UHGV virus genome: UHGV-0144137 | DNA: 32,828 nucleotides | Direction: 5' to 3' (one strand) | Origin: a virus | Translations under genes and position numbers: made by a program | Part shown: positions 26,962-32,828 of the stretch, one piece after another | Position numbering within the stretch: the first letter of the stretch is position 1 | How the letters are laid out: each line of letters begins with the position of its first letter | The notes under the pieces: generated by a model | Told to the model about the DNA's origin: nothing | The model's input: the letters and a program-made list of their open reading frames with translations, nothing else | Databases searched by the model: none

Positions 26962-28134
26962 ATGCCACACAAGAAAGTAGCATTACAGCTCATTGAAGAA
27001 ACACTTAAAGAACTCGAGTCACCAAAAGGTTCTTTGTTATCGGCTATACAAAAACTACAGCGGACTTCGGATATCATCAATGATGATGATAAAAAGATAT
27101 GGTGTGCTATTCAATTAGGTGATACTAAATATACAAAGCCAATAACTGAATTGCTTAAGTTTGTTATTGAGGCTGAAAATACAAAAAATAAATCTTTCCA
27201 AGAAAATTTAGACAAACGAATACAAGAACTTGCCAAATTAGGAGTTAAGGCTAATATACATTATTCAGATGAAGAACTCACATTAAAAAATATTGAAAGT
27301 GGTGGTGGATATAATAACATTGGGTTTATTGAAGAGAAATATGCCGATCTTGTAAGAAAAAAACAAGGCAATGACGGAACGTATTATAAGAATAGTTTAA
27401 ATCAACATATCAATTATGTTAGAAAAAAAGCACATGAATTAGCATCGCAAATATATAATCAACTAAAATTTTCAGGTACTGTCAGCAACTGTTTTGATGT
27501 ATTGAAAAATGCTGTTGATGATAAATTATTAGATCTAAATCCAGTGATCGCAGAACAACTAATGTTGGCATTTAAAGCTATTTCTTCAGATAAAGAAGAA
27601 GAATGGTCTCAAGCTTTAACTACATGTCGTAGGCTTCTAGAAGGGTTGGCTGATGAACTTTATCCGGCATCGAAGGAAAAATTTAATGGTCGGGCCGTTG
27701 GGCAAGGTCAATACGTAAACCGCCTTTGGGCATTTATGGATGGGGCTATTCAGTCTGATAGTAATAAAGACCTTGCCAAAGCACATATAGATTTTCTCGG
27801 ATCATGGTTAGATAAAGTTAATAAGTTAACAAATAAAGGTGTTCATGCCGAGTTAGATCGGATTGAAGCTGTAAAGTCAGTATTTCACACGTATTTAGTA
27901 GTGGCGGATTTGCTTGAGTATATGTCAAATACCAAAACCTCTGTATCTAAGCCTGATATCAATAAAGCTACTTTAGATGAACTGGAAGCATTGTTAAATA
28001 TAAATAGAACAATCGCTAAAGAAATTGTTAAAGCACGAGTTCGTGAAGGCAAGCTTGATCTGGATATTTTAAAAAACATAAAAGGTATAGGTGCTAAGAC
28101 GCTTAGTAATATACAAGAAGTGTTTGTTATGTAA
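26962..28134 (+). CDS. hypothetical alpha-helical protein with C-terminal ComEA-type helix-hairpin-helix DNA-binding domain
   Basis: Track ORF 26953..28134, start set to ATG 26962 (GAAGGA Shine-Dalgarno 9 nt upstream); C-terminus INKATLDELEALLNINRTIAKEIVKARVREGKLDLDILKNIKGIGAKTLSNI fits the ComEA HhH pattern; AT-rich codon usage. Confidence 0.6.
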   Translation: MPHKKVALQLIEETLKELESPKGSLLSAIQKLQRTSDIINDDDKKIWCAIQLGDTKYTKPITELLKFVIEAENTKNKSFQENLDKRIQELAKLGVKANIHYSDEELTLKNIESGGGYNNIGFIEEKYADLVRKKQGNDGTYYKNSLNQHINYVRKKAHELASQIYNQLKFSGTVSNCFDVLKNAVDDKLLDLNPVIAEQLMLAFKAISSDKEEEWSQALTTCRRLLEGLADELYPASKEKFNGRAVGQGQYVNRLWAFMDGAIQSDSNKDLAKAHIDFLGSWLDKVNKLTNKGVHAELDRIEAVKSVFHTYLVVADLLEYMSNTKTSVSKPDINKATLDELEALLNINRTIAKEIVKARVREGKLDLDILKNIKGIGAKTLSNIQEVFVM

Positions 28135-28170
28135 TTTATTTAGTATTTAATTGATATAATATCATGAAAT

Positions 28171-28206
28171 AAAATCGGGAGTTCATACGTAGCAACTCCC
28201 GATTTT
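28171..28206. terminator. Bidirectional terminator-like hairpin between convergent genes
   Basis: Perfect 10 bp stem ATCGGGAGTT / AACTCCCGAT flanked by AAAA and TTTT. Confidence 0.55.
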
Positions 28207-28225
28207 ACGATGATATGTTGTATTA

Positions 28226-28592
28226 TCAATCCATCAAACCACGTGAGGTCTTACTTGCAGTCTGACGAAAATCATAACGTTCCACAACATCACCCTTAAA
28301 CCAGATATCCAGTGATTTAATGTGTGCTGTGCTGCTATTGGTCAATAGAGCAAGGCCCGGTATGTAGTTAGATAGTTGGCTTTCTCCCGTCATACTTGAG
28401 TAGTTCCACATCTCCTGTCCATCATTCGTAGCGCTCTCCAAAGGCAGCAAGAATTTCTTGTTGGGTTGTTTTTCCCTTGACGATTTTAACTTTAACCGTC
28501 TGATGATTTTCATCAGTTAGGGATTTATTACCATGAACGGTACAGCCACCAAGTGGTAATATTATAAAAATAGCAAGTAATAATTTTTTCAT
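28226..28592 (-). pseudogene. Lipoprotein gene apparently split by a frameshift
   Basis: Two overlapping minus-strand ORFs (28422..28634 and 28226..28513) in different frames; the upstream one carries signal peptide and lipobox MKKLLLAIFIILPLGGC (ATG at 28592), the downstream one lacks its own signal; overlap region contains a homopolymer run. Confidence 0.4.
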
Positions 28593-28623
28593 TTTTGTTC
28601 CAGAAATAGATGAAAGGTGAGAC

Positions 28624-29112
28624 TCAGAAAACATACTTTTTAAATACCAGCATCCATCGCTTGCAAAGTTCGTGATTTGAGGTGCTTAAATTTTTCAGGG
28701 GAACATTAACTTTCCACATGGGATTTTTAATATCATCGGTTAAAATATTTAGGCCAGACCGTTTATTCGCTGAAAGTTGTTCTCTACAGTTAGCAATAGC
28801 CGCATTATTCATACCTCGTAATGTTCCATTGCCATAAAACTTACCCCCCTCTGAAAGCGTATAATTTATTTCTCGAATTTGATCAAAAGTATATGTGCTG
28901 TCTTTATCTTTATTGAAAATACGGACAGTATGTTTTTGAGTATCAATAACAATACCTGTCTGTTGGCATTCATACGAAAGAATGTCGCCGTCCAGAACTT
29001 CCGTAAAGCTGTTGTAGTGCTTTTTCTTTTGTATATCTACTGCTGTCATGATGATGATGAAGAGCACCACTAAAAATACGATACCTACTGCTTCCAATCT
29101 TACTTCCTCCAT
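28624..29112 (-). CDS. hypothetical membrane-anchored protein
   Basis: 162 aa; N-terminal TM helix (AVGIVFLVVLFIIIMTAV) then soluble domain; AT-rich; divergent from the lipoprotein operon across the GATC-rich region. Confidence 0.55.
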   Translation of the reverse strand: MEEVRLEAVGIVFLVVLFIIIMTAVDIQKKKHYNSFTEVLDGDILSYECQQTGIVIDTQKHTVRIFNKDKDSTYTFDQIREINYTLSEGGKFYGNGTLRGMNNAAIANCREQLSANKRSGLNILTDDIKNPMWKVNVPLKNLSTSNHELCKRWMLVFKKYVF

Positions 29113-29224
29113 GTAAATGAGTTAAAGAGACTGAACCTGCTCACAGAGCTTTGCTACGTTTTATACGTCCTACAGCACCAAGCTCATGGCGTCGGTCTCG
29201 GCGTTGCAAGGCTATCAGAACTTG

Positions 29225-29375
29225 AAATCATGATCGATATAAAAGATCGATAATTAATTATTGATAGGCTTTAACGATTAAAACAATGATATTGATCGAT
29301 TATTAATTGTTTTTATCGATCGAATATTTATTTATGATAGCTATTGGCTATCATAAGGTTGTTTTTGATCGTTTT
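29225..29375. promoter_or_regulatory. Divergent intergenic control region with clustered GATCGAT repeats and a 10 bp inverted repeat
   Basis: GATC at 29232, 29245, 29294, 29318 and 29367; the 7-mer GATCGAT occurs three times direct and once inverted; imperfect 22 bp direct repeat GATCGATwATTAATTrTT (29245-29266 and 29294-29315); inverted repeat TTATGATAGC-N5-GCTATCATAA at 29332-29356. Confidence 0.5.
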
Positions 29376-29529
29376 AAACGATATGACGAGACGCTAAAAG
29401 AATTGAATCCTATCAATTGGTTAAGCGGTGGTTTTGCCATGTGATATCAGCCGGATCCCGCAACAACTCTAGCCCTGACCAGATTTGGTCAAAAATTTAG
29501 GCACTTTGATTATCAGGATGGATAAGCAG

Positions 29530-30060
29530 ATGAAGAAGATTTTACTCGTTGCTGGCGCAGCTCTGGCACTGGCGGGATGTGGTGAGAAAGGTGATTTTGA
29601 GAAGGCGATCAATGCCAAGATAGGGCAGGACAAATATTGCTTCTCGCTGGATAACAATAACACCAGCTTCCCCATCCGTCTTGCCAAGCCACGACTTGAT
29701 TCGACTGGTACAGGGACGAATTCAGTGATCCTCGATGGATTTGTAGAGCAGGGAATGATGGTCTTTGAGCAGGGCTATGATTCGAACGTATTAGGGATAA
29801 CAGAGGAAGGCAAAAAAGCCAAAGTCTGGAGCACAACAGATGGTGCCTGTGTTGGTCGTCGTGCTGTTGACGGGATTAAGGAATGGACTGAGCCGGGAAA
29901 CGGTAATCAGAAAGTAGTTCGCGTGACTTATACGTGGAAGCTGGTTGACGTTCCGGGCTGGATTGACAAAAAAGCATTCGCCAGCGTTAAAGGAATGAAT
30001 GAACCTGCTGATGGTGCCATGAATCTCTTTAAGACCAGCAATGGCTGGAAAGCCAATTAA
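29530..30060 (+). CDS. Predicted lipoprotein
   Basis: Track ORF 29485..30060 trimmed to ATG 29530 (MKKILLVAGAALALAGCGEKG...): signal peptide with lipobox LAGC. Confidence 0.7.
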   Translation: MKKILLVAGAALALAGCGEKGDFEKAINAKIGQDKYCFSLDNNNTSFPIRLAKPRLDSTGTGTNSVILDGFVEQGMMVFEQGYDSNVLGITEEGKKAKVWSTTDGACVGRRAVDGIKEWTEPGNGNQKVVRVTYTWKLVDVPGWIDKKAFASVKGMNEPADGAMNLFKTSNGWKAN

Positions 30061-30070
30061 GGAAACCAAT

Positions 30071-30346
30071 ATGGAAAACAATACCATCAAATGCCCGTTC
30101 TGTTTCAAAGAGAGCCAGCGTGGGGTTCACGTTTGCACAGGTTGCTTAGCGACTGTGTTATATGGCACTTATCCCGGCTGGTATGCTGCTGTTGTTTTGT
30201 TGTTGACTTTTGGTTTATCGACGTTGATCGGTATGTCAACAGGTATGGCAGGAGCTACTATCAGTCTACCAATAATTGCGGTTGTTGGGTTTATAGCTGG
30301 TAAGGCGATATTCTCTGATAATGTTGTGTTTAGGCGAAAGATATAA
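30071..30346 (+). CDS. small membrane protein with N-terminal zinc-ribbon (CPFC...CTGC)
   Basis: Track ORF 30041..30346 trimmed to ATG 30071 (AAGGAAACC Shine-Dalgarno); CxxC-x15-CxxC then two hydrophobic helices; 10 nt downstream of the lipoprotein gene. Confidence 0.6.
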   Translation: MENNTIKCPFCFKESQRGVHVCTGCLATVLYGTYPGWYAAVVLLLTFGLSTLIGMSTGMAGATISLPIIAVVGFIAGKAIFSDNVVFRRKI

Positions 30347-30405
30347 AAAACGAAAAGAATTATATGATGGGCGACCTTTCATAGTTCGCCCATATATAAA
30401 TATAA

Positions 30406-31242
30406 CTAAAGACCATTTCTCGCTGATTTTATATCCAATAAGTTTATTTTATCTATCTTATCTTTGTGGATAACGATAGTAAGCTTTGCCGGAAATTTAA
30501 ACCTCATTTCACTTATTCTAAAAGTCCACAACATTATTTTAAGTAAATCCTCATCGCTAATATTTTTATGTTCCTTTATTCTAGTGATTCCAGATCCAAA
30601 GATAGGAACAGAGACACTTTTTTGAGCATATATACGATTAACTTTGTCCCAAAAATTTATTAAAAATGCTAGATAATCCGGCATTGTAAGAAAAGCTCTA
30701 TTTTTGTCGTCAAATTTTGAAAACGCAGTTAATAGATAATCATTATTAACGAAGATAGTTCCTAGCGAATATTTTTGTGTTTTACCCACTTTTCTTTTAT
30801 GGTTGACCTCAAGCAGTTCATCTTCTTCAAACTGATGATTTGAAATACGATGGTCCAAATCAGATACGGATCCCGCTAAATAGTTATCAATATATAATCC
30901 ATTAAGTGAATTATGAGAAATGATAACATCATCAACTTGCGTGTCAAAATATTCATTAAAAGCAATGACCTTGAATCCATCTTGTCTGAATAAATCGCCT
31001 GCTTTTACAGTAACAATGCTGCCCTCAACATCTAAATTAATTTCCGAAAGATTATTTGATTTAAACCATATGCCGAAATACAGTAAGAATAAAATAATTA
31101 AAAATATAATACCAAGTGTTAGTTTGTTTTCTGTTGGAATGTCTACAAAAATCAAAAAAAGTGAAAATATGGTACTAATAGTTGATGTGTAGTCTGAAAA
31201 TTTTTTAAGTATACGCTTATCGAAAAAATTAACTTTCGCCAT
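30406..31242 (-). CDS. Two-TM membrane protein with C-terminal Macro-like domain (ThsA type II-like effector candidate)
   Basis: 278 aa; two N-terminal hydrophobic helices (TISTIFSLFLIFV, LGIIFLIILFLLYFGIWF); downstream motifs DDVIISHNSLNG and SVPIFGSGITR resemble Macro-domain ADP-ribose-binding motifs (by eye); about 30% GC. Confidence 0.55.
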   Translation of the reverse strand: MAKVNFFDKRILKKFSDYTSTISTIFSLFLIFVDIPTENKLTLGIIFLIILFLLYFGIWFKSNNLSEINLDVEGSIVTVKAGDLFRQDGFKVIAFNEYFDTQVDDVIISHNSLNGLYIDNYLAGSVSDLDHRISNHQFEEDELLEVNHKRKVGKTQKYSLGTIFVNNDYLLTAFSKFDDKNRAFLTMPDYLAFLINFWDKVNRIYAQKSVSVPIFGSGITRIKEHKNISDEDLLKIMLWTFRISEMRFKFPAKLTIVIHKDKIDKINLLDIKSARNGL

Positions 31243-31378
31243 TTTTGTACCAACCTTGTTAATTATATGTAATTCAAGTGTGTTGATAGTAGTTTCTTAT
31301 AAATGATGTTTACACTATCTGATATATAAGGTATTTTCAACATGTTGATACTAATGTTGACTGCTTCATGGGGACTAT

Positions 31379-31888
31379 ATGAGTTATCGTAATAAGACAT
31401 ATGTGGCTTTTGCAAGTGAAGATATAAAGTTTTATCGTCTTATGGAGGCATGGAAAGCAAATGAAAAAATAGACTTTAACTTTTTTGATGCTCATGATCT
31501 CTTTATTTCAAGGGATACAAGTAAACCTGAAACCATAAAGCGAAACCTCCGCGAAAGGATGAAAAATGCTAAACAAGTAGTACTGTTGGGAAGCGGTAAT
31601 ACTAAGAGAAAAGGTAGCGATGGAGTATCGTTTCTTGCCCATGAAATAGATCTTATCGTAGAATTTAATCTTCCTGTTGTAATAGCTAATTTAGACGGAG
31701 ATAGAACAGTCGATAAGAACTTCATTCCTAAACCACTTTTAGATTCAGAACATTATACAGTATCTGTCTCTTTCCAACCTAAAATTATTAAATATGCATT
31801 AGATAATTACTGTGTTAACTATTACTCAAGTTCAAATAGTGGTAGTTATCTATACCCTACATCTGTTTATACTAAGCTAGGTCTGTAA
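31379..31888 (+). CDS. TIR-like (DUF1863 / ThsB-like) protein candidate
   Basis: 169 aa; N-terminus KTYVAFASEDIKFYRLMEAW and later VVLLGSGNT...AHEIDL fit the pattern of TIR-like ThsB proteins as I recall it; divergent from the TM-Macro gene. Confidence 0.5.
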   Translation: MSYRNKTYVAFASEDIKFYRLMEAWKANEKIDFNFFDAHDLFISRDTSKPETIKRNLRERMKNAKQVVLLGSGNTKRKGSDGVSFLAHEIDLIVEFNLPVVIANLDGDRTVDKNFIPKPLLDSEHYTVSVSFQPKIIKYALDNYCVNYYSSSNSGSYLYPTSVYTKLGL

Positions 31889-31914
31889 TATTTCAACGTA
31901 TACTAAACAATATG

Positions 31915-31941
31915 TGGAATGAGCACGGAACACTCATTCCA
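31915..31941. terminator. Hairpin between convergent genes
   Basis: 9 bp stem TGGAATGAG / CTCATTCCA with 9 nt loop, in an AT-rich intergenic region. Confidence 0.4.
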
Positions 31942-32019
31942 TAACAAACATACTATTTAGATGTGCTAATACAATTAATTTTATGCATCGAAGATATTAA
32001 GCACTTATGATTTATTGCT

Positions 32020-32828
32020 TTATCTTCTCCTGTATGCTATTTCAGCCAACTCTCTTGCTATTTCCTTAACGCTATATAAAGAAGTTTGCAGTGCCATTTT
32101 ATCCGCCAAATAATGGCTGTATTTAGATACCTCTTGAGCATTGATATTATGCCAGATTGGCAATATAATCTTATTATCATCATACACTGCACGATTAATT
32201 AAACTATCTAATTCGTATTGTGTCCATTTCTTGTTTAGAAAGTTATGAGAAAGTATGACTATGCCATAATTTGCTTTTCTTAGGCCTAAATCAATATTTC
32301 TCCTTAAGCTATCGCCGACTTCAAGTGTCTGTTCATCATACCAAATAATTACACCAAGTCTATTTAACTCGTCTACCAGTGGTCTGACAAAAGTATCTTT
32401 ATCCTCTTTTGCATGGGATATGAAAAAATCATAGTGCGTATTATTGTTATCTTGCATGACGTCATTCTGTATTTCATATGGTTGATGAAAAATTGCTTGT
32501 AATTTTGCCCAGTCTATTTCTGCTAAAGATTTATTATTGCGATAAAATAGTTTTTGGGAAGGGAAATCAATATTCGAAATGTAAATAATAAATATATTAT
32601 TTATTTTCTTTGCCTCAACCTCCTTCCACTCCCATCTATAATCGTGGATATAAGAAATTGATGCTTGAAAATAATCATTGGAAGTTAAATTACCTGCGCG
32701 AAATGTCGCATTACTAATATTAAACGCGAGATATGAGTTACCTTCTCCGTTGAAAATAATATTATATCCCTCTTTCAATAGATATGAACGAATCTCTTTG
32801 GTTTTTAGGTGCTGTTTCCATGCGAGGA
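32020..32828 (-). CDS. TIR-domain protein (N-terminus beyond window edge)
   Basis: Canonical TIR motifs YDFFISHAKEDKDTFVRPLVDEL...WYDE...IVILSHNFLNKKWTQYEL in the C-terminal half; the reading frame stays open upstream of the TTG at 32778 to the end of the window, so the gene is probably truncated by the window. Confidence 0.75.
   Translation of the reverse strand, partial: LAWKQHLKTKEIRSYLLKEGYNIIFNGEGNSYLAFNISNATFRAGNLTSNDYFQASISYIHDYRWEWKEVEAKKINNIFIIYISNIDFPSQKLFYRNNKSLAEIDWAKLQAIFHQPYEIQNDVMQDNNNTHYDFFISHAKEDKDTFVRPLVDELNRLGVIIWYDEQTLEVGDSLRRNIDLGLRKANYGIVILSHNFLNKKWTQYELDSLINRAVYDDNKIILPIWHNINAQEVSKYSHYLADKMALQTSLYSVKEIARELAEIAYRRR

What the first reader, a model, noticed from the sequence alone, without database searches (positions are those of the whole stretch)
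29225..29375. GATCGAT repeat array and inverted repeat in a divergent control region (possible Dam-dependent switch or iterons)
Within about 140 bp of AT-rich intergenic DNA there are five GATC sites, four inside copies of the 7-mer GATCGAT (three direct, one inverted), an imperfect 22 bp direct repeat GATCGATwATTAATTrTT, and a 10 bp inverted repeat TTATGATAGC-N5-GCTATCATAA. This density is far above chance for such a short AT-rich stretch. Clustered GATC sites in promoter regions are the hallmark of Dam-methylation-dependent phase variation (pap, agn43, phage gtr operons); alternatively these could be iterons or operators for an unknown regulator. The region controls divergent operons encoding membrane proteins and lipoproteins.
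Basis: seen in the sequence. Interest (0 to 1): 0.58.

Follow-up and report, generated by a model that had tools for sequence, protein, structure and literature searches.

The report
Likely Dam/OxyR epigenetic gene switch
A 195-bp stretch between two back-to-back envelope-protein operons of a mobilisable genomic island has the sequence signature of a DNA-methylation/OxyR on-off switch, like those that vary Salmonella O-antigen and E. coli Ag43. The stretch is conserved in related islands across enteric bacteria, so these island genes are probably expressed in only part of each population.

Summary
There are five GATC sites in 139 bp, four of them inside GATCGAT, plus the 10-bp inverted repeat.

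These features belong to a discrete conserved non-coding element, 29230-29424. I found 58 distinct copies in genomic islands across Enterobacterales.

The "repeats" are better read as an array of OxyR half-sites (ATAGnTnnnAnCTAT). Five match with at most one mismatch when position 3 may be A or C and position 13 T or G. Their centres are 31/42/31/31 bp apart. GATC sites lie in alternate half-sites.

This is the architecture of the proven Dam/OxyR phase-variation switches gtr (32/32) and opvAB (32/41/32). The left 113 bp is 72% identical to the phage P22 gtrABC control region itself. An extended -10 sits at the same offset as the mapped gtr promoter.

Across the family, conservation falls on the positions the OxyR consensus specifies (1.57 versus 0.76 bits).

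Iteron, origin, oriT, hairpin and structured-RNA readings were tested and not supported.

Best reading (about 0.7): a Dam/OxyR epigenetic switch controlling the divergent DUF4755/lipoprotein and SEN1982-type lipoprotein operons of a ROD21-like island. I found no description of it in the papers I could search. Nothing has been shown experimentally. The rightward promoter and any coupling of the two sides are inference.

The parts
29230..29424 (.). Whole conserved non-coding element (26% G+C), the proposed switch
   Evidence: Homology to diverged islands starts sharply at 29230 and ends near 29424. The family profile aligns to 29230-29425 at 146 bits. There are 58 distinct copies in Enterobacterales.
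29233..29247 (.). Half-site HS1 (ATCGATATAAAAGAT, 7/10 to the OxyR consensus), flanked by GATC1 (29232-35) and GATC2 (29245-48). Equivalent to gtr half-site C
   Evidence: 22 of 25 bases are identical to P22 gtr site C, including positions the consensus leaves free. GATC is present at both ends in 38 of 58 family members.
29264..29278 (.). Half-site HS2 (ATAGGCTTTAACGAT, 8/10), no GATC. Equivalent to gtr half-site B
   Evidence: TTGATAG is conserved in the family.
29294..29297 (.). GATC3, inside a poor half-site HS3 (29295-29309, 5/10) that overlaps HS3' by 4 bp
   Evidence: GATC is present at this position in 78% of family members. Half-site score.
29306..29320 (.). Half-site HS3' (ATTGTTTTTATCGAT, 8/10) with GATC4 (29318-21) at its right end
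   Evidence: CGATC is present in 54 of 58 members..
29337..29351 (.). Half-site HS4 (ATAGCTATTGGCTAT, 9/10), no GATC.
   Evidence: In the family, T at position 6 (78%) and A at position 10 (74%) are kept although the search pattern did not constrain them.
29368..29382 (.). Half-site HS5 (ATCGTTTTAAACGAT, 8/10; a perfect match to ATMGNTNNNANCKAT) with GATC5 (29367-70) at its left end
   Evidence: It is the same half-site type as the agn43 OxyR site G|ATCGTTTATATCGAT|C.
29399..29413 (.). Weak sixth half-site HS6 (AGAATTGAATCCTAT, 7/10), 31 bp from HS5
   Evidence: It matches only at 2 mismatches in most members.
29395..29423 (+). IHF-like site: an A-tract followed by TATCAATTGGTTA, which matches WATCAANNNNTTR
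   Evidence: One of 4 exact consensus matches in the window. TATCAATTG.TTAA is conserved in most family members. Binding is inferred from the consensus only.
29209..29217 (-). Predicted extended -10 (TGATAGCCT) of the leftward promoter; predicted transcription start near 29202
   Evidence: It lies at the same offset from the outer GATC as the P22 gtr extended -10 TGCTACACT, whose start site was mapped. It is conserved as TGATAGGCT in an 81%-identical variant whose neighbouring flank has diverged.
29398..29403 (+). Candidate -10 (AAGAAT; family consensus AATAAT) of a rightward promoter. Weak
   Evidence: The block AAAAATAATTGAAT is conserved even in members that lack the IHF-like site, and a + strand gene follows in nearly all members. 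The promoter scan did not call it.
28624..29112 (-). Leftward gene: DUF4755 protein with an N-terminal membrane anchor (RefSeq start at 29097)
   Evidence: Pfam PF15947, E 4e-14. Annotated in E. coli 536.
28226..28634 (-). Leftward, downstream gene: SEN1984/BamE-like lipoprotein, frameshifted here
   Evidence: Annotated as a frameshifted pseudogene in 536 and as 'SEN1984 family lipoprotein' in strain ECO21. The homologue in another locus hits the BamE domain.
29530..30060 (+). Rightward gene: SEN1982-family lipoprotein
   Evidence: Lipobox signal. RefSeq names.
30071..30346 (+). Rightward, second gene: 91-aa membrane protein with N-terminal CxxC pairs
   Evidence: Annotated in 536. It co-occurs with the lipoprotein gene in the family.

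Best explanation
The element 29230-29424 is a Dam-methylation/OxyR epigenetic phase-variation switch of the gtr/opvAB/agn43 class. It sits between two divergent envelope-protein operons of a ROD21-like (EARL) mobilisable genomic island.

Shown from sequence:
- There are five good and one or two weak 15-bp OxyR half-sites on one face of the helix. Their centres are at 29240, 29271, 29313, 29344, 29375 and (weak) 29406.
- GATC sites lie in or beside alternate half-sites.

Inferred by analogy with gtr and opvAB:
- An OxyR tetramer can occupy alternative neighbouring pairs of half-sites.
- Where it sits it shields the GATC sites from Dam.
- Where Dam methylates first, OxyR cannot bind.
- Each occupancy pattern is therefore copied to daughter cells, giving heritable ON and OFF lineages.

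Leftward promoter: the extended -10 is at 29217-29209, and the -35 overlaps GATC1/HS1. This is laid out as in P22 gtr, so OxyR on HS1+HS2 should shut it off.

Rightward side: HS3'-HS4-HS5 form a mirror-image A-B-C unit next to a weaker candidate promoter for the SEN1982-type lipoprotein operon.

The result would be that only part of a clonal population makes these island-encoded envelope proteins.
For: 1. Half-site array. ATMGNTNNNANCKAT with at most 1 mismatch hits 9 times in the window, and 5 of those lie in 29233-29382. 5000 dinucleotide shuffles of the region gave a mean of 0.14 and a maximum of 3.

2. Spacing. The spacing of 31/42/31/31 bp matches gtr (GATC at -110, -97, -46, -33, which gives half-site centres 32 bp apart in the P22 sequence). 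It also matches opvAB (centres at -148, -116, -75, -43).

3. Homology. Window 29231-29343 is 72% identical to the P22 gtrA-int intergenic region. This is the only kind of phage hit (E 4e-4). HS1 and its flanks are 22/25 identical to gtr site C.

4. Promoter. The extended -10 TGATAGCCT lies at the same offset as gtr's TGCTACACT and is conserved in a diverged variant.

5. Family conservation. In 58 copies, OxyR-specified positions carry 1.57 bits against 0.76 for unspecified ones. GATC sites recur at fixed positions in 64-93% of copies. The pattern of methylatable and non-methylatable half-sites in alternation is kept.

6. Short versions. A three-half-site version (centres -31, 0, +31) occurs in 13 loci. 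Among the 10 proteins I checked there were a second island family, a membrane-anchored GGDEF protein and weakly fimbria-like proteins.

7. HS5 is of the same type as the agn43 OxyR/Dam site.
Against: - There are no methylation, binding or expression data.
- The OxyR consensus is short and AT-rich, and the half-sites score only 7-9/10.
- The family profile hits the gtr region only weakly (23 bits, E 0.06 when scaled to 2.3 Gb).
- The rightward promoter is weak and was not called by the scan.
- The left flank holding the -10 is not conserved across the wider family, and some members have no divergent gene on the left or none on the right.
- Selection for GATC as such cannot be separated from selection for OxyR half-sites of the ATCG-N7-CGAT type.
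- HS4 and part of HS5 were fixed by my search pattern, so their invariance in the family carries no information.
Confidence: 0.7

Rival explanations
1. This is an ordinary, non-switching operator region. OxyR or another LysR-type regulator binds the dyads and regulates the divergent promoters in a graded way. The GATC sites are a by-product of ATCG-N7-CGAT half-sites and have no heritable ON/OFF consequence.
For: The same half-site evidence applies. Conservation of GATC cannot be separated from conservation of the half-sites. LysR-type boxes (T-N11-A) are generic.
Against: In every studied case with this half-site type and spacing (gtr, opvAB, agn43), methylation blocks OxyR and phase variation results. 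Alternation of methylatable and non-methylatable sites is kept across 58 copies. Part of the element is homologous to the gtr switch. No LysR-type regulator gene is annotated in the 536 island or the three other loci whose annotation I read.
Confidence: 0.12
2. This is a cis-acting site of the mobile island: an iteron or GATC-rich replication origin served by the island's RepL, an oriT for the MobQ relaxase, or a P1-pac-like packaging site.
For: It is a discrete AT-rich element conserved independently of its flanking genes. Its GATC density is about 36 per kb and it has an IHF-like site. In two relaxase families it can lie just past the 3' end of the relaxase gene. The literature I read has not mapped an oriT or oriV for these islands.
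Against: - The direct repeats are only 71% alike with irregular spacing of 49 and 24 bp.
- There is no DnaA box with at most 1 mismatch between 28813 and 30070.
- repL is about 4.5 kb away in 536 and varies in position and orientation.
- The element is on the 3' side of mobQ, and a conventional inverted repeat lies upstream of mobQ in 536.
- Conservation follows the OxyR consensus positions.
- The homologous P22 sequence is a promoter region.
Confidence: 0.06
3. This is a nucleoid-protein target (SeqA, or H-NS and the island's own H-NS paralogue) that silences or sequesters AT-rich island DNA without any specific regulator.
For: The element is 26% G+C. The islands encode H-NS paralogues. SeqA is an ancillary factor at opvAB.
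Against: Column-specific conservation with a 15-bp dyad pattern and fixed 31-bp phasing is not expected for H-NS or SeqA, which need only AT-richness or GATC pairs.
Confidence: 0.05
4. The inverted repeat is a hairpin, either an intrinsic terminator or attenuator or a DNA cruciform, and the element is an RNA leader.
For: The scan calls a terminator-like hairpin with a T-rich tail at 29331-29357. The window's copy folds at -13.1 kcal/mol, z = -3.8.
Against: In the family only the 6-bp arms TGATAG/CTATCA are kept. Pairs extending the stem are Watson-Crick in only 24-53% of copies. Inside the loop only the T6/A10 pair of the OxyR consensus is kept. There is no Rfam match.
Confidence: 0.02

Closest known systems
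Phage P22 gtrABC control region (Dam/OxyR phase variation of O-antigen glucosylation; Broadbent et al. 2010, PMC2909390)
   Same: - Sequence homology: 72% over 113 bp, and 22/25 at site C.
- Half-sites of the G|ATCG-N7-CGAT|C type that carry paired GATC sites 13 bp apart.
- An unmethylatable middle half-site containing TTGATAG.
- Centre spacing of about 32 bp.
- An extended -10 at the same distance from the outer GATC.
   Different: - gtr has three half-sites, four GATC sites and one promoter. This element has five or six half-sites, five GATC sites, a 42-bp step, an IHF-like site, and genes on both sides.
- The regulated genes are unrelated: DUF4755 and lipoproteins instead of glucosyltransferases.
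- The host element is a mobilisable island rather than a phage.
Salmonella opvAB control region (Cota et al. 2016, PMC4856963)
   Same: Four OxyR half-sites spaced 32/41/32 bp on one helical face, with scores of 7-10/10 and GATC sites both in and beside the half-sites. This matches the 31/42/31 steps of HS1-HS2-HS3'-HS4.
   Different: opvAB has a single promoter. I did not compare the opvAB sequence itself, so homology is untested. In opvAB, OxyR is proposed to bind non-adjacent half-sites.
E. coli agn43 (flu) control region
   Same: The OxyR half-site G|ATCGTTTATATCGAT|C is of the same type as HS5 and HS1. It controls a surface protein encoded on mobile DNA.
   Different: agn43 has one compact OxyR site with half-sites about 22 bp apart and three GATC sites. 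OxyR acts only as a repressor there. The family profile detects agn43 only at a chance level (16.7 bits, E 4.9).
pap-type Lrp/Dam fimbrial switches
   Same: They also use GATC methylation patterns to give heritable ON/OFF states.
   Different: pap uses two GATC sites about 102 bp apart inside Lrp sites, plus PapI/PapB. No GATC pair has that spacing here, and no such regulator appears among the flanking genes.

Membership tests
Dam/OxyR epigenetic phase-variation switch (agn43, gtr, opvAB) | Two or more OxyR half-sites matching ATAGnTnnnAnCTAT | tested here: met
   Five sites score 7, 8, 8, 9 and 8 of 10, with a weak sixth at 7/10. For comparison, P22 gtr sites score 8, 9, 8 by the same count and opvAB sites 10, 8, 10, 7. 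Shuffles of the region gave a mean of 0.14 hits and a maximum of 3.
Dam/OxyR epigenetic phase-variation switch (agn43, gtr, opvAB) | Half-site spacing that lets one OxyR tetramer choose between alternative pairs (about 32 bp centre to centre, all on one helical face) | tested here: met
   Centres at 29240, 29271, 29313, 29344, 29375 and 29406 give steps of 31, 42, 31, 31 and 31 bp. The steps are conserved in the family. Compare gtr at 32/32 and opvAB at 32/41/32.
Dam/OxyR epigenetic phase-variation switch (agn43, gtr, opvAB) | GATC sites inside or beside some but not all half-sites | tested here: met
   HS1 has two, HS3' has one (plus GATC3 beside it) and HS5 has one. HS2, HS4 and HS6 have none.
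Dam/OxyR epigenetic phase-variation switch (agn43, gtr, opvAB) | A promoter overlapped by or adjacent to the half-sites | tested here: inconclusive
   The leftward extended -10 sits at the gtr-equivalent offset and is conserved. The rightward promoter rests only on a weak conserved AATAAT-like block. No transcription start data were available.
Dam/OxyR epigenetic phase-variation switch (agn43, gtr, opvAB) | Sequence relatedness to a proven member | tested here: met
   BLAST against P22 gtr gives 72% over 113 bp, E 4e-4 in 2.3 Gb and 1e-3 in 7.3 Gb. The profile search is weaker, at 23 bits and E 0.06.
Dam/OxyR epigenetic phase-variation switch (agn43, gtr, opvAB) | OxyR binding blocked by GATC methylation, and OxyR-dependent non-methylated GATC sites in vivo | not testable with these tools
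   Needs EMSA or footprinting and per-read methylation calls. The papers I could search gave nothing for this locus.
Dam/OxyR epigenetic phase-variation switch (agn43, gtr, opvAB) | Heritable ON/OFF (bimodal) expression dependent on dam and oxyR | not testable with these tools
   Needs single-cell reporters.
pap-type Lrp/Dam switch | Two GATC sites about 102 bp apart in Lrp sites, with PapI/PapB-type regulators | tested here: not met
   No GATC pair lies 102-103 bp apart (positions). No such regulator appears among the flanking genes.
Iteron-type plasmid or island replication origin | Several well-conserved direct repeats in regular phase, DnaA box(es), and an adjacent rep gene | tested here: not met
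   The repeats are 71% alike with spacing of 49 and 24 bp. No DnaA box with at most 1 mismatch lies in 28813-30070. repL is about 4.5 kb away in 536.
MOBQ oriT | An inverted repeat plus nic site next to the 5' end of the relaxase operon | tested here: not met
   The element lies on the 3' side of mobQ, about 3.9 kb from its 3' end in 536 and 52 bp in L002. A conventional inverted repeat lies upstream of mobQ. Nicking was not tested.
EARL (ROD21-like) genomic island, as the host element | Insertion beside a tRNA gene, a P4-like integrase, a MobQ relaxase with TraD, type IV pilin genes and an H-NS paralogue | tested here: met
   All are annotated around the 99.9%-identical segment in E. coli 536. 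The family definition is in PMC6035254, although that paper defines the family mostly by Asn-tRNA insertion, whereas the 536 island lies beside tRNA-Ser. The window itself holds only the part from about 26397 onward.

The most novel reading that the evidence does not exclude
The element is a double, back-to-back gtr-type switch. A left unit (HS1-HS2-HS3) and a right unit (HS3'-HS4-HS5) would each control one of the two divergent operons. Their distal half-sites overlap by 4 bp (HS3/HS3'), so the OxyR positions that activate the two sides would exclude each other. That would make a three-state epigenetic toggle in which a cell expresses one envelope-protein operon, the other, or neither.

The element would also be a portable switch cassette shared between P22-type phages and at least two families of mobilisable islands, where it sits between hotspots for anti-phage defence genes.
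Probability: 0.2. Interest if true: 0.78.

Novelty: new member of a known kind. Interest (0 to 1): 0.6.

Why it matters
If confirmed, this adds a widely distributed fourth family to the few known Dam/OxyR switches (agn43, gtr, opvAB).

It lies on ROD21-like islands of pathogens. These include the E. coli serU/TcpC island, EPEC IE3, Salmonella ROD21 and Klebsiella ICEKp258.2 as named in PMC6035254. I confirmed the element itself only in the E. coli members and in 56 loci from genomes of other species.

It would mean that island-encoded envelope proteins are made by only a fraction of cells. One of them is the SEN1982 type, which has been reported as needed for systemic colonisation by S. Enteritidis (cited in PMC10655114). 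That matters for interpreting bulk expression and virulence data on these islands.

The switch module sits between variable anti-phage gene sets. Heterogeneous envelope proteins next to defence cargo is therefore a testable link between phase variation and phage or conjugation biology.

The six-site, two-promoter layout would also be a useful natural test of how OxyR chooses among half-sites.

Tried and rejected
- **Rfam.** A permissive scan of 28000-31000 gave only two chance snoRNA-like hits elsewhere.
- **Hairpin or terminator reading of the inverted repeat.** Rejected because the stem is not maintained in the family.
- **Iterons and replication origin.** Weak irregular repeats, no DnaA box, a distant repL.
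- **oriT.** The element is on the wrong side of mobQ, and a better candidate lies upstream of mobQ.
- **pap/Lrp-type switch.** No 102-bp GATC pair.
- **Promoters inside the palindrome (TATGAT in each arm).** The scan suggested them. I rejected them because the key A at position 2 of the -10 is under 70% conserved.
- **A sigma-54 promoter or another promoter between 29424 and 29530.** Nothing convincing by eye, and this stretch is not conserved in the 81%-identical variant.
- **Separating selection for GATC from selection for OxyR half-sites.** I used the flanking bases, but non-methylatable sites also prefer G and C flanks, so the result was inconclusive.
- **Function of the regulated proteins.** Pfam, NCBIfam, PHROGs and PADLOC gave only DUF4755, lipobox signals and a BamE-like domain.
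- **Literature.** I found no description of this switch, no methylation data for the locus, and nothing on it in the main text of the Microcolony-seq EPEC paper, whose supplements I did not open.
- **Profile search.** The family profile gave only borderline support for homology to gtr.

Full report
**1. Where the finding sits**

Bases 1 to about 26390 of the window are the late region of a P22-like prophage: terminase, portal, capsid, DNA-transfer proteins and tailspike. From about 26397 to the end, the window is 99.9% identical to part of the island beside tRNA-Ser (serU) in E. coli 536 and many other strains.

In 536 that island carries a P4-type integrase, an AlpA-like regulator, an H-NS paralogue, RepL, a MobQ relaxase, TraD, type IV pilin genes and tcpC. 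That is the gene set used to define the Enterobacteriaceae-associated ROD21-like (EARL) islands (PMC6035254).

The reported region lies between two groups of genes:
- On the left, reading leftward: a gene for a membrane-anchored DUF4755 protein (28624-29112, - strand), followed by a frameshifted SEN1984/BamE-like lipoprotein gene.
- On the right, reading rightward: a SEN1982-family lipoprotein gene (29530-30060, + strand), followed by a gene for a small membrane protein.

**2. The observation**

- GATC at 29232, 29245, 29294, 29318 and 29367.
- GATCGAT three times on the + strand and once on the - strand. These are 4 of the 5 copies in the whole window.
- TTATGATAGC-N5-GCTATCATAA at 29332-29356.
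- An imperfect direct repeat.

GATC is otherwise under-represented in the window, with 73 found against 127 expected. Five GATC sites were reached in only 9 of 5000 dinucleotide-preserving shuffles of the region itself.

**3. It is a discrete conserved element**

In diverged relatives in E. coli, similarity begins abruptly at 29230 whatever lies to the left, and ends near 29424. In one strain the element lies between a DUF4755 gene and the 3' end of mobQ, with no lipoprotein gene at all.

A pattern built from invariant columns found 56 loci in species-representative genomes across Enterobacterales. They include Proteus, Yersinia, Pectobacterium, Brenneria, Sodalis, Xenorhabdus, Serratia, Klebsiella, Enterobacter and Citrobacter. 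Together with the E. coli copies this gives 58 distinct sequences.

GATC sites recur at fixed positions in these copies: 64%, 74%, 78% and 93% for sites 1 to 4. Site 5 was fixed by my search pattern.

**4. The link to a proven switch**

A sensitive BLAST of the 206-bp region against plasmids and phages returned one kind of hit outside the islands. It was the intergenic region between gtrA and int of phage P22 and its relatives (72% identity over window 29231-29343; E 1e-3 and 4e-4).

That region is the experimentally defined Dam/OxyR phase-variation switch of gtrABC (PMC2909390). Its features are:
- four GATC sites, at -110, -97, -46 and -33;
- three OxyR half-sites, A, B and C;
- a transcription start 25 bp before gtrA.

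These coordinates fit the P22-like sequence I fetched exactly.

Window 29230-29254 is 22/25 identical to gtr site C and its flanks. The identical bases include positions the OxyR consensus leaves free, which argues for common descent rather than convergence alone. A profile of the island family detects the gtr region only weakly (23 bits), so the homology claim is moderate, not strong.

**5. Reading the element as OxyR half-sites**

| Half-site | Coordinates | Score against ATAGnTnnnAnCTAT | GATC content |
|---|---|---|---|
| HS1 | 29233-47 | 7/10 | both ends |
| HS2 | 29264-78 | 8/10 | none |
| HS3' | 29306-20 | 8/10 | right end |
| HS4 | 29337-51 | 9/10 | none |
| HS5 | 29368-82 | 8/10 | left end |
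| HS6 (weak) | 29399-413 | 7/10 | none |

By the same count the P22 sites score 8, 9 and 8, and the opvAB sites 10, 8, 10 and 7.

Allowing A or C at position 3 and T or G at position 13, the pattern hits 9 times in the window with at most one mismatch. Five of those hits are here. Shuffles of the region never gave more than 3.

The centres are 31, 42, 31, 31 (and 31) bp apart, so all lie on one face of the helix. gtr uses 32/32 and opvAB 32/41/32. HS5 is of the same type as the agn43 site G|ATCGTTTATATCGAT|C.

GATC sites occupy alternate half-sites: HS1 has two, HS3' one and HS5 one, while HS2, HS4 and HS6 have none. GATC3 lies just outside HS3', in a poor half-site (HS3, 5/10) that overlaps HS3' by 4 bp.

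**6. Comparative test**

Across the 58 copies, columns the OxyR consensus specifies carry 1.57 bits on average. Unspecified columns inside the half-sites carry 0.76 bits, and the rest of the element 0.93.

T at position 6 and A at position 10 are kept in sites my search pattern did not constrain. The alternation of methylatable and non-methylatable sites is also kept.

The family splits into two forms:
- A long form in EARL-type islands, with centres at -105, -74, -31, 0, +31 and (+62) relative to HS4.
- A short three-site form (-31, 0, +31), which is the gtr A-B-C layout.

The short form occurs in 13 loci. In seven of them the element lies just past the 3' end of a large relaxase-like gene, which I confirmed by Pfam as MobA/VirD2-type in one (L020). 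Leftward in those loci are genes for a membrane protein and, where I checked, a BamE-like lipoprotein. In two loci it lies upstream of a membrane-anchored GGDEF protein. In two more it lies next to weakly fimbria-like proteins.

A portable three-site core with varying cargo fits a regulatory cassette better than an origin or transfer site.

**7. Promoters**

*Leftward.* On the - strand the window reads TGATAGCCT (29217-29209). This is an extended -10 at exactly the distance from the outer GATC at which P22 has TGCTACACT, upstream of its mapped start site. In an 81%-identical E. coli variant this block is kept (TGATAGGCT) while the sequence around it has diverged. Many other family members instead have a clear TTGnnn-17-TAnnnT about 12 bp further out. 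A leftward promoter beside HS1 is therefore well supported, with a predicted start near 29202.

*Rightward.* A + strand gene begins 75-130 bp past the element in nearly all members. A conserved AAAAATAATTGAAT block (window -10 candidate AAGAAT, 29398-403) persists even where the following site is replaced. It is a weak match and the scan did not call it. I treat this promoter as inferred.

*Next to it* lies an A-tract followed by TATCAATTGGTTA, an exact match to the IHF consensus WATCAANNNNTTR. Binding there is inferred from the consensus only.

**8. Proposed mechanism**

Shown here: the array, its phasing, the placement of the GATC sites, family conservation at consensus positions, homology to gtr, and the leftward -10.

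Inferred by analogy with gtr and opvAB:
- An OxyR tetramer binds alternative neighbouring pairs of half-sites.
- Bound OxyR shields its GATC sites from Dam.
- Methylated GATC sites exclude OxyR.
- The occupancy pattern is inherited.

On the left, OxyR on HS1+HS2 would cover the -35 and switch the promoter off, as OxyR on sites B and C does in gtr. On the right, HS3'-HS4-HS5 mirror A-B-C.

Because HS3 and HS3' overlap, the two sides might exclude each other. This is speculation, and I give it about 0.2.

**9. Rivals**

- An iteron origin, an oriT, a hairpin or terminator, and a structured RNA were each tested and are poorly supported.
- The most serious rival is that OxyR or another regulator binds here without producing heritable bistability.
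- The data cannot separate selection for GATC from selection for this half-site type.

**10. Novelty**

The kind of system is known. This locus, its spread across mobilisable islands of Enterobacterales, and its five-to-six-site, two-sided layout were not described in any paper I could search. That includes the ROD21/EARL papers, which mention neither Dam nor OxyR sites in the island. The library is incomplete, so prior description cannot be excluded.

I rate it a new member of a known kind, interest 0.6. Confidence that it is a Dam/OxyR epigenetic switch is about 0.7.

Noticed in passing
window 30406-32778: A Thoeris-type defence locus. ThsA with N-terminal membrane helices and a Macro domain is at 30406-31242 (- strand; PADLOC ThsA E 4e-128). 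ThsB (TIR) is at 31379-31888 (+ strand). The gene annotated as the virulence factor TcpC (32020-32778, cut by the window end) matches a PADLOC ThsB1 model over its full length (E 2.7e-177). TcpC therefore looks like a second ThsB of this system.
   Followed up: partly
window about 26397 (junction); 1-26390: A P22-like prophage late region abuts the island segment inside a hypothetical gene (17340-18302 of locus L001, E. coli 536). None of the 5426 complete E. coli genomes in the collection has the two parts contiguous. This prophage has no gtr operon after its tailspike gene, so lying next to a gtr-like switch appears to be coincidence.
   Followed up: partly
L065, L066, L067, L003, L004 (E. 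coli relatives); window 28226-30346: The module [SEN1984-like lipoprotein, DUF4755] - switch - [SEN1982 lipoprotein, small membrane protein] is constant. The genes on both sides of it vary between strains and are mostly anti-phage: DUF4238, SIR2+TIR, Drt5, ApeA, TIR+TPR, an AAA ATPase, and Thoeris. This suggests two cargo hotspots flanking the switch module.
   Followed up: partly
L020, L022, L028, L033, L041, L044, L061; L031, L038; L019, L042, L048, L006: A short three-half-site version of the element (GATC sites at -26, +23 and often +36 or -39 relative to the centre of the middle half-site) occurs outside EARL islands. It is found in a second island family with a relaxase confirmed as MobA/VirD2-type in L020, upstream of a membrane-anchored GGDEF protein, and next to weakly fimbria-like genes. 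These would be further candidate phase-variable loci.
   Followed up: partly
L001 26018-26044 (E. coli 536, outside the window): An inverted repeat, CCCACACACTGC-GTA-GCAGTGTATAGG, lies about 120 bp upstream of mobQ. It is a candidate for the island's unmapped oriT.
   Followed up: no
window 28226-28634: The SEN1984/BamE-like lipoprotein gene downstream of DUF4755 is split into two overlapping reading frames. It is annotated as a frameshifted pseudogene in E. coli 536, whereas related strains have it intact.
   Followed up: no
window 29476-29491: A perfect 6-bp palindrome, TGACCA-GATT-TGGTCA, lies in the presumed leader of the lipoprotein gene. It changes or is lost in variants.
   Followed up: no
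whole window: GATC is strongly under-represented overall: 73 sites against a mean of 127 in dinucleotide-preserving shuffles, and all 100 shuffles had at least 73.
   Followed up: no
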